From the human T2T-CHM13v2.0 reference genome, Homo sapiens: a stretch of DNA of 64,000 nucleotides. The DNA lies in the NCBI RefSeq assembly GCF_009914755.1, contig NC_060927.1; one strand, given 5' to 3'. Of the stretch, positions 23,561 to 25,626 are shown one piece after another (the first letter of the stretch is position 1; each line of letters starts with the position of its first letter). The translations under genes and the position numbers were made by a program. The notes beneath the pieces are model-generated. The model saw only the letters and a program-made list of their open reading frames with translations. It was not told the origin of the DNA and did not search any database.

Positions 23561-24756
23561 ATACTGATATACTATAACTTCAAATCCTCCTCTCCTTTCT
23601 ATATATTAGTGCCTAGAAAAACACACTGTCTATTCTTCCCTCCTTCTCTAAATTCAGTGTCTTTCACAAGTTTTTGTATATGTGGCTACTCTGGTGTGCA
23701 AACAAAAAAAAAAAAGAAAAAAACATTTTGTAAATCACGAGAAGAAAAAACTTACACCATGATCATGTGTGAGTACATGTGCACACACATACACATGCAG
23801 GCACATACACATTTCATGAAAATATACTTAATGCCATTAAGAATTGGTATTCTATTCTAATCTATGCTCTTTTATTTCTTTCTTTTCAAAAATAATGGTT
23901 GTGACTCACCAAAGTGACTTTATGACTCACCCATGGGTGTCAATCACAGTTTGAAAAATACTTCTAAATCTCTCCTTGCGTTAAGAAAGATTATTAGAGG
24001 GTTGTGAATCTGCATCTCGTTGTCTAGCCCCTCATAGACTTTTTTTTTAATTTTACTTAGGTATTATGCTATTTTACTACTTTCAGGGGCATTATAAAAA
24101 TCAGTCTCATGACAAGAAATAACTAGTGTTGTTGAAGATATGGGAAAAGGGAACCCTTGTACAGTTTGGTGACAACGTAAATTGGTATAGCCATTATGGA
24201 AAACAATATGAAGTTCCTCAAAAAACTTAAACATAGAGCTACCAGATGATCCACGAGTTTCACTTCTGGGTATAGGTCTAAAGGAATTAAGTTACTATTT
24301 TGAAGAGGTATCTGCACATGCCCATGTTCATTACAGTATTGTTCACAATAGACGAGATATAGGAACGATCTTAGTGTCCATCAGTGAATGAATTTTTAAA
24401 TGTAGTATAATTACACAGTAAAATATTATTCAAACAGGTTCATCCATGCTGCCATTTGCAACAACATGGATGAACCTGGAAAGAATTACGCTAAGTAAAA
24501 TAACTCAAAAAGAGAAAGAAAAACTATGACATCACTTATATGTGGAATCTTAAAAAAAAAAAACAGTCAAACTCACAGAAACAGAGTAAAATGATGGTTA
24601 CCAATGGTGCATGGGGTAGATGAGGAGATGTTAGTCAAAGAGTCCAAACTTTCAGTTTCTGAGGATCTAATGTTTAATATGGTGGCTACAGTTAACACTA
24701 TAGTTAACCATCAAACAACAGAAATTTGAACCGTGTGGGTTTATTTATGCATGGAA

Positions 24757-24983
24757 TTTTTTTTTTTTTTTTTTTTTTTTTGCGACGGAGTCTCCCTCTG
24801 TCGCCCAGGCTGGAGTGCAGTGGCGCGATCTCAGCTCACTGCAACCTCCACCTCCTGGGCTCAAGCTATTCTCCTGCCTCATCCTCCTGAGTAGCTGGGA
24901 CTACAGGCGCCTGCCATCATGCCCGGCTAGTTTTTTGTATTTTTAGTAGAGATGGGGTTTCATCATGTTGGACAGGCTGGTCT
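24757..24983 (-). mobile_element. 5'-truncated AluS with A25 tail (3' part of the U5/Alu chimera)
   Basis: Minus strand reads agaccagcctgtccaacatgatgaaacccc...gagactccgtcgc(A)25; about 90 nt of the Alu 5' end is absent. Confidence 0.93.
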
Positions 24984-25003
24984 AATTTTTAACACTCACA
25001 ATT

Positions 25004-25118
25004 TAGCCTCGTGAAACACGAGGCCTCAGAAATTGGATAAAGACTCATAACTGTTCCTCCCCATGGAAATCTTTAATAAAAGGCGAAAGATTTACATGAT
25101 CTGAAGAGAAACAAGAGT
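25004..25118 (-). pseudogene. RNU5: U5 snRNA retro-pseudogene, essentially full length
   Basis: Minus strand actcttgtttctcttcagatcatgtaaatctttcgccttttattaaagatttccatggggaggaacagttatgagtctttatccaatttctgaggcctcgtgtttcacgaggcta aligns to human U5 (loop 1 GCCTTTTAy, Sm-site remnant, 3' stem-loop). No upstream PSE context; it lies inside a TSD. Confidence 0.93.
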
Positions 25119-25626
25119 TATGCATGGATTTTTTAAAATAAATATACCAATTTTTTTTGGAGATTTACAACAGTTTGAAGAAACTTGCAGGGTAACCATG
25201 ACCCCTGAGACAATAAGACTAACCCCTGCTCTTCTTCCTCCTCCTCAGCCTACTCAATGTGAAGACAATGAGGATGAAGATCCTCATGATGATCAACTTC
25301 CACTTAGTGAATAATAAATATATATATATATATTATCTTTCTTATGGTTTTTCTTAATAACATTTCCTTTTCTCTACTTACTTTATGTAAGAATATGGTA
25401 AAATATTCTAATAACCAAAATACATATAACAATACATATAAGAAAAGAATACATATCAGAAAAAAATATGTGTGAACTGACTGTTCACATTATCTGTAAA
25501 TCTTCTGGTCAACAGTAGCCTATTAGTGGTTAAGTTGTGGGGGAGTCAAATGTTATATACAGATTTTGATTTGTGAGTTCCCCTAACCCCTAAGTTGCTC
25601 TGGAGTCCACTGTACTGTGTTGTATA

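What the first reader, a model, noticed from the sequence alone, without database searches (positions are those of the whole stretch)
24745..25138. U5 snRNA-Alu chimeric retrocopy inside a single TSD
Seen (minus strand): full U5 (25118-25004), a 20-nt linker, a 5'-truncated AluS (24983-24782) and an A25 tail. One TSD, ttatgcatgga(a)ttttt, encloses the whole unit (24745 and 25118). The target reads tttttt/aaaa (25129-25138), the L1 endonuclease consensus, and the host Tigger2 is continuous once the unit is removed. Known: snRNA/L1 chimeras (mostly U6) arise during L1 target-primed reverse transcription by template switching or RNA ligation; U5 joined to Alu is a much rarer pairing. Inference: a single retrotransposition event. 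Standard annotation would probably list the U5 and the Alu as two unrelated repeats.
Basis: partly seen in the sequence, partly recalled or inferred. Interest (0 to 1): 0.72.

Follow-up and report, generated by a model that had tools for sequence, protein, structure and literature searches.

The report
Unprocessed U5 RNA fused to Alu
This is a promoterless genomic copy of a U5 splicing RNA that still carries its gene's 3' processing signal and is joined to a shortened Alu repeat, likely pasted in as one reverse-transcription accident, though two insertions at the same spot remain possible; it is likely an inert fossil.

Summary
The anatomy is real: on the minus strand, a full-length U5 copy (RNU5E-8P), 21 nt of linker, a 5'-truncated Alu and an A25 tail lie between two 17-nt repeats (16/17 identical) at a TTTT/AAAA site, and the host transposon is continuous with one repeat copy. 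New here: the linker is U5-gene 3' flank containing a 3' box at the spacing seen in real genes (13.6 bits; 50 of 127,952 background positions), and the copy groups with a promoter-bearing U5 gene on chr1 (98/94). So the template was an unprocessed, 3'-extended U5 RNA. The box's last three bases are also the Alu's first three, as a template switch would leave. The junction is unique in the genome. Against a single event: the 7-mer before the Alu recurs exactly after its tail and includes the one mismatch of the outer repeat, so it could be the Alu's own short duplication; and 6 of 16 other U5 copies have an Alu inserted at or inside them. Verdict: single event by template switch about 50%, two insertions about 30%, read-through from a lost source about 13%. 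Primate orthologues would decide. A curious but inert variant of known snRNA chimeras.

The parts
24701..25612 (.). Host DNA-transposon copy (Tigger2-type by recall), interrupted by the insertion; TA on both sides and decayed terminal inverted repeats
   Evidence: (49 non-self matches, 40 of 2665 candidates scored), alignment; ends read
25129..25138 (-). L1 endonuclease-type target TTTT/AAAAAA
   Evidence: sequence
25118..25134 (-). 5' copy of the 17-nt target-site duplication; its last A is also U5 nt 3
   Evidence: agrees with the host majority at the variant base (A in 22 of 26 aligned copies)
25005..25118 (-). U5 snRNA copy, nt 3 to the mature 3' end (RNU5E-8P); no upstream PSE; changes in loop 1 and in the Sm site
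   Evidence: groups with PSE-bearing gene L037 and copy L039 at 98/94
24984..25004 (-). 21-nt linker = 3' flank of the source U5 gene
   Evidence: best flank match L037, shuffle p 0.005
24981..24995 (-). 3' box-like element, starting 10 nt and ending 24 nt after the U5 end
   Evidence: 13.6 bits; 50 of 127,952 background positions; consensus and spacing from PMC4526738
24981..24983 (-). AGA shared by the end of the 3' box and the start of the Alu (candidate microhomology)
24984..24990 (-). 7-mer repeated exactly at 24761-24755; candidate inner duplication of the Alu (rival reading)
24782..24983 (-). 5'-truncated Alu from about nt 81, sense to U5; 7 of 169 non-CpG and 10 of 32 CpG sites differ from the local majority
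24757..24781 (-). Uninterrupted A25 tail (last five A shared with the 3' repeat copy)
24745..24761 (-). 3' copy of the target-site duplication, one A-to-T difference at position 6

Best explanation
A promoterless U5 copy with its gene's 3' flank and 3' box is joined to a 5'-truncated Alu inside one target duplication, likely made in a single L1 reverse-transcription event in which the enzyme likely switched from an Alu RNA to an unprocessed U5 transcript. Steps: (1) shown: the target is a TTTT/AAAA site in an old DNA transposon, now duplicated; inferred: L1 ORF2p nicked it and primed on the A-tail of an Alu RNA. (2) inferred: after about 200 nt the cDNA end annealed through 2-3 nt (AG or AGA) to the end of the 3' box of a U5 transcript that Integrator had not yet cut. 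(3) shown: the copy continues through 21 nt of flank and U5 to nt 3; inferred: it came from an ancestor or sister of the chr1 gene L037. (4) inferred: a later A-to-T change in the 3' repeat copy. The product has no PSE and a damaged Sm site, so it is likely inert.
For: One 17-nt duplication and a continuous empty site. Linker scores as a 3' box ending at offset 24, as in 4 of 8 genes, range 22-25; 15 other promoterless copies reach at most 8.7 bits. The nearest gene by the U5 body (L037) is also the best flank match and reads TTAG at the same place, so the TT and AG need no other source. AGA starts at only 5 of 284 positions of the Alu majority. Junction unique, 1 match with up to 3 mismatches. 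Ages of the parts do not differ: 4/54 vs 7/169 non-CpG, P=0.47; 2/6 vs 10/32 CpG; 8/112 vs 17/201 all sites, P=0.83. In all 6 other U5 copies with an adjoining Alu, the Alu is full length, and 3 show a third copy of the target; here it is truncated with no third full copy. Truncated Alus are not associated with short duplications (PMC2912911). Uncleaved U5 precursors exist and accumulate when Integrator or exosome is depleted (PMC7610016).
Against: The one mismatch in the outer repeat is exactly the base that makes the 7-mer recur on both sides of the Alu; under this reading that is a coincidence. Alus insert at U5 copies often (3 of 16 in sense at the 3' side, 6 of 16 in all). The box matrix was anchored on AG(A/G), which favours the last three columns; without them p is 0.005. 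L037 reads AGG, not AGA, so the microhomology may be only 2 nt. All 7 U5 chimeras in PMC4476161 and all 5 in PMC13174262 are 3'-truncated and none is with Alu; snRNA/Alu switching was not reproduced experimentally (PMC4476161). The age test has little power and mildly favours an older U5 (ratio 1.6). My expected-count model gives this reading a share of 0.5 with quartiles 0.23-0.77, and most of its factors are assumptions.
Confidence: 0.5

Rival explanations
1. Two insertions at one spot. First a 3'-extended U5 RNA was primed on the A-run of its 3' box and inserted with the 17-nt duplication; later a 5'-truncated Alu inserted at the TT/AAAA site so created, with its own 7-nt duplication.
For: The 7-mer flanks the Alu exactly and accounts for the mismatch position. 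L039, L052 and L056 show U5 and Alu with three target copies; L046 has U5 and a full Alu inside one outer repeat. L042, L050 and L056 appear to carry flank up to an A-run (5.8-8.7 bits). The Alu ranks 10th youngest of 66 and has a pure A25 tail. Model share 0.33.
Against: Needs a truncated Alu, a 7-nt duplication (2 of 23 measured were under 10 nt; rare in PMC2912911), a breakpoint that happens to complete the 3' box (AG at 24, AGA at 5 of 284 positions), and an earlier mutation or unusual priming to put TT in the target (host has A in 22 of 26 copies). No age gap is detectable.
Confidence: 0.3
2. Read-through from a chimeric source: a now-lost sister gene of L037 had this truncated Alu inserted in its 3' box (which holds a TT/AAAA site); a U5-box-Alu read-through RNA was copied in one pass from the Alu tail.
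For: Explains the full-length U5, the whole box, the shared AGA and, possibly, the 7-mer after the tail as the start of the source's second repeat copy. Needs no rare switch. Variant U1 genes make 3'-extended RNAs (PMC12667742).
Against: None of the 8 PSE-bearing U5 loci has an Alu at its box; L037 has only a 75%-identical right-arm fragment 76 nt downstream. No second copy of the junction. Model share 0.17.
Confidence: 0.13
3. RNA ligation before insertion: a cut 3'-extended U5 RNA was ligated (RtcB-type) to a 5'-OH Alu fragment and the hybrid was inserted in one pass.
For: Shown for U6/L1, and left open for other small RNAs cut by a nuclease (PMC6789731). Fits one duplication and sense orientation.
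Against: U5 does not normally end in a cyclic phosphate; ligation does not predict shared bases at the junction.
Confidence: 0.05
4. A real or duplicated U5 gene at this place that later received an Alu in its 3' box.
For: Full-length U5 with a correctly spaced 3' box; both stem-loops still fold.
Against: No PSE (-5.1 bits against 2.3 to 18.3 for the 8 genes); the upstream DNA is the host transposon, continuous across the site.
Confidence: 0.01

Closest known systems
snRNA/L1 and snRNA/Alu chimeric retropseudogenes (U6/L1, U6atac/Alu; PMC4476161, PMC13174262; U1- and U2-Alu as summarised in PMC4494074)
   Same: snRNA at the 5' end, 5'-truncated retroelement in sense at the 3' end, A-tail, one duplication at an L1 endonuclease site.
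   Different: U5 with Alu; the U5 is full length and runs 24 nt past its mature end through the 3' box, whereas the 7 and 5 catalogued U5 chimeras are all 3'-truncated and joined to L1, SVA or unknown DNA. A single event is not proven here.
Poly(A)-tailed full-length snRNA retropseudogenes from nuclear processing intermediates (PMC4476161, section on polyadenylated snRNA)
   Same: Full-length snRNA with a short 3' extension, duplication, no promoter; points to nuclear recruitment.
   Different: Extension reaches the end of the 3' box and is followed by an Alu, not by an A-tail.
Sequential Alu insertion at the duplicated target or tail of an older retrocopy (L039, L046, L052, L056 in this genome)
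   Same: U5 and sense Alu side by side within a shared target sequence.
   Different: Those Alus are full length, and three of the four loci show a third target copy; here only a 7-mer recurs.
SINEU of crocodilians (PMC4494074)
   Same: snRNA-derived head on a retroposed tail, likely born by template switch.
   Different: SINEU amplified as families; this junction occurs once.

Membership tests
L1-mediated retropseudogene | Target-site duplication of 7-20 nt | tested here: met
   17 nt, 16 identical; only 2 occurrences in the window
L1-mediated retropseudogene | TTTT/A cleavage site and 3' A-tail | tested here: met
   25138-25129 and A25
L1-mediated retropseudogene | No upstream promoter of the source gene | tested here: met
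   PSE score -5.1 bits; upstream is host transposon
snRNA/retroelement chimera (single event) | snRNA 5', truncated retroelement 3', same orientation | tested here: met
snRNA/retroelement chimera (single event) | No separate duplication for either part | tested here: inconclusive
   A 7-mer flanks the Alu on both sides; it occurs 52 times in 128,000 strand-positions
snRNA/retroelement chimera (single event) | Both parts of the same age | tested here: inconclusive
   No difference, P=0.47 and 0.83, low power
snRNA/retroelement chimera (single event) | Both parts absent together from orthologous empty sites | not testable with these tools
   No primate genomes are held (no relatives); paralogous host copies only show the state before any insertion
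U6-type RtcB ligation chimera | snRNA ends at its mature, cyclic-phosphate 3' end | tested here: not met
   The RNA is U5 and the junction lies 21-24 nt past the mature end
Functional U5 gene | PSE near -58, intact loop 1 and Sm site, 3' box | tested here: not met
   3' box present, PSE absent, loop 1 and Sm site changed
Amplified composite SINE | Several copies sharing the junction | tested here: not met
   1 match in the genome with up to 3 mismatches in 30 nt
AluS subfamily / Tigger2 host | Match to curated subfamily consensus | not testable with these tools
   No repeat library; best other Alu 92% among 40 scored; names from recall

The most novel reading that the evidence does not exclude
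A fossil showing that L1 reverse transcriptase can jump from an Alu RNA onto an uncut, Pol II-made snRNA precursor at the very end of its 3' box, that is, onto a nuclear RNA caught before Integrator cleavage; it preserves the 3' flank of an ancestral U5 gene and defines a searchable class of precursor-snRNA chimeras that catalogues built on mature sequences would miss.
Probability: 0.45. Interest if true: 0.5.

Novelty: new variant of a known kind. Interest (0 to 1): 0.38.

Why it matters
If it is one event, it extends template switching beyond U6 and beyond truncated snRNAs to an unprocessed Pol II precursor with an Alu partner, and it argues that the switch happened in the nucleus, which bears on the template-switch versus ligation question. 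Under every reading the linker records a 3'-extended U5 RNA and the flank of its source gene. It is also a caution: one enclosing duplication does not prove a chimera, since Alus often land at U5 copies. No function is indicated; the only mention of RNU5E-8P found is a list of loci altered in 3 of 39 Burkitt lymphomas (PMC6440956).

Tried and rejected
Real U5 gene here: rejected (no PSE, host continuous). Amplified source element: no second junction. L037 itself as a U5-Alu source: its downstream Alu-like piece is 76 nt away, starts at nt 129 and is 75% identical. Full-length Alu followed by a deletion from the middle target copy: considered by eye, the breakpoints share no fitting microhomology; not computed. 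Dating by divergence: uninformative. Search for the closest Alu: best 92%, 40 of 3097 candidates scored, DNA around them not obtained, so the subfamily stays open. Measuring Alu duplication lengths locally gave calls for only 23 of 65. The tree with flank gave 84/93 for L040 with L037, below the tool's threshold. RNA folding shows both U5 stem-loops, z -2.0, which decides nothing. Buzdin 2003 and Garcia-Perez 2007 are not held; either could list a U5-Alu. Searches with the term '3 box' cannot be trusted to match the primed spelling.

Full report
Observation. The minus strand reads: host transposon, 17-nt repeat (25134-25118), U5 (to 25005), 21-nt linker, Alu (24983-24782), A25, second repeat copy (24761-24745), host transposon. 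Rfam finds U5 over the whole model, 84 bits. The two repeat copies differ at one base and are the only two matches within one mismatch in the window. The target is TTTT/AAAAAA. Of 29 fetched copies of the host element (from 49 non-self matches), 24 align across the junction when the unit and one repeat copy are removed, 14 with no gap within 10 nt; with both copies kept, 2 span it, none cleanly (alignment). At the variant base the host has A in 22 of 26 aligned copies, so the T in the 3' copy is the derived state. The labels Tigger2 and AluS are from recall; no repeat library was available.

It is a retrocopy. The genome search with RF00020 gave 29 matches from 48 scored candidates. Eight loci (L031-L038) have a PSE-like motif at -58 to -61 (leave-one-out 2.3 to 18.3 bits); this copy scores -5.1 and the 16 other near-full-length copies -4.8 to 3.3. 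Eight is also the number of expressed U5 genes in PMC8457000 (passages). The copy has changes in loop 1 and the Sm site.

The linker. In the DNA search, 4 of 39 non-self matches ran past the U5 3' end, and all four are PSE-bearing genes. The published 3' box is GTTTN0-3AAARNNAGA, 9-19 nt downstream (PMC4526738, passages). The linker holds such a motif from 10 to 24 nt downstream. A matrix from the 8 genes scores it 13.6 bits, ending at offset 24 as in 4 of the 8 genes; genes score 1.1 to 14.7 left out in turn, 15 other copies at most 8.7 (L049, L055 and L057-L059 were left out as truncated), and 50 of 127,952 window positions reach the score, the site itself included. The matrix was anchored on AG(A/G); without the last three or five columns the background rate is 0.005 or 0.008. 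The best pairwise flank match is L037 (shuffle p 0.005, one of 8 genes tested), then L035 (0.009) and L033 (0.018); no promoterless copy is below 0.12. Independently, a tree of 21 U5 bodies (L043, L048, L049, L053, L055, L057-L059 left out) groups this copy with L037 and L039 at 98/94; with flank added and 9 rows, support for L040 with L037 is 84/93. By recalled gene order L037 is RNU5E-6P; no call confirms the name. So the template was a U5 RNA of the L037 lineage that had not been cut at its 3' end. Such precursors exist and rise on INTS11 or exosome loss (PMC7610016, passages; PMC12667742 for U1 variants, passages).

The junction. The last three bases of the box position (24983-24981) are the first three of the Alu, which starts at about nt 81; AGA begins at 5 and AG at 24 of 284 positions of the majority of 65 local Alus. 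L037 reads TTAGG there, so the overlap is 2 or 3 nt. A 30-nt pattern across the junction matches once in the genome with up to 3 mismatches. The Alu differs from the majority at 7 of 169 non-CpG and 10 of 32 CpG sites; 9 of 65 local Alus are less diverged. The conserved U5 part differs at 4 of 54 and 2 of 6 (P=0.47 and 1.0); over 112 callable sites 8 differ against 17 of 201 (P=0.83). The parts cannot be told apart in age, but the test is weak.

Evidence against one event. The seven bases before the Alu (24990-24984) recur exactly at 24761-24755 and include the derived T, so they could be the Alu's own duplication. Alus do land at U5 copies: among 16 other near-full-length promoterless copies, 6 have one adjoining or inside (L039, L043, L046, L047, L052, L056; L045, 75 nt away and outside its repeat, not counted), 3 in sense on the 3' side. 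L046 has U5 and an Alu inside one outer repeat. But all those Alus start at nt 1-8, and L039, L052 and L056 show a third target copy, which is missing here. Of 23 duplications I could measure among 65 Alus, 2 were under 10 nt, and PMC2912911 (abstract, passages, one section) reports that truncated Alus are not associated with short duplications. A rough expected-count model, with ranges that are mostly my assumptions, gives shares of 0.50 (template switch), 0.33 (two insertions) and 0.17 (read-through from a lost source), with wide quartiles. It shows that the question is open and leans one way; it is not a measurement.

Mechanism. I commit to one target-primed event: priming on the Alu tail, about 200 nt of Alu copied, a switch through 2-3 shared bases onto the 3' box end of an uncut U5 transcript, copying to U5 nt 3, and closure with a 17-nt duplication. 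Shown: structure, duplication, empty site, source lineage, box, uniqueness. Inferred: the order, the switch and the later A-to-T change. Ligation is less likely: PMC6789731 (passages) ties it to a cyclic-phosphate end that U5 lacks unless cut.

What is known. PMC4476161 (passages, sections 5-7, part 1 of 2 of the supplement) examined copies within 10% of the reference; this one matches the two closest chr15 genes at 96 and 98 of 116 positions and would likely have been missed. Its 30 chimeras include 7 with U5, all 3'-truncated, none with Alu, and 2 U6atac-Alu; it states that U6/Alu chimeras were reported but not reproduced. PMC13174262 (passages; supplement 2, parts 1-2 of 5) lists 5 U5/L1 chimeras, all truncated, and covers L1 only; a number search of its 6 readable supplements found nothing for this place (one further file too large to read). 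PMC4494074 (passages) says one U1 and two U2 copies were reported with Alu fragments. A search for U5-Alu and related terms returned 0 occurrences of U5-Alu in the 2 papers listed; RNU5E-8P appears in one paper, without structure. Searches listed nothing on snRNA copies with a 3' box, judged from listings only, and the term may not match the primed spelling. Buzdin 2003 and Garcia-Perez 2007 could not be read, so a prior listing of this locus is not excluded. PMC3415434 and PMC13640761 (passages) added nothing decisive.

Verdict. A real, likely inert fossil: a new variant of the known snRNA chimeras if one event (about two in three, all one-event routes summed), an ordinary stacking of two insertions on an unusual precursor copy if not. 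Interest 0.38.

Noticed in passing
L039 (G000:C11:47736891-47737009), L052 (C8:30923142-30923255), L056 (C1:240064775-240064890): U5 copies next to a full-length sense Alu with three copies of the same target sequence: sequential use of a duplicated endonuclease site.
   Followed up: partly
L046 (G000:C5:139973734-139973844): Full-length U5, a decayed 40-nt tail and a full-length Alu inside one outer repeat; likely an Alu in the tail, but a chimera is not excluded.
   Followed up: partly
L042, L050, L056, 3' of the U5: Full-length U5 copies that seem to keep 8-15 nt of gene flank up to a box-like A-run: possibly a small class of precursor-derived copies. L050, L056, L041 and L044 group with gene L034 at 97/95.
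   Followed up: partly
L043 (G000:C12:31470629-31470742) and L047 (C12:101427828-101427943): Antisense Alus inserted at the U-rich Sm site or 3' end of U5 copies; the Sm-site T-run offers an endonuclease site on the other strand.
   Followed up: partly
L049 (G000:C3:40513978-40514089): 3'-truncated U5 (about nt 1-83) followed by unrelated DNA; likely the U5/L1PA7 chimera listed on chr3 in PMC13174262 table S2.
   Followed up: no
L037, 76-310 nt downstream of the U5 gene: A diverged Alu right-arm-like fragment (75% to the majority) with an internal direct duplication of about 80 nt, close behind a promoter-bearing U5 gene; L037's own box ends in AGG.
   Followed up: no
window 29852-29999, minus strand: Rfam Metazoa_SRP match at 72 bits with a 161-position model gap: likely an old Alu arm or monomer, not a 7SL gene.
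   Followed up: no
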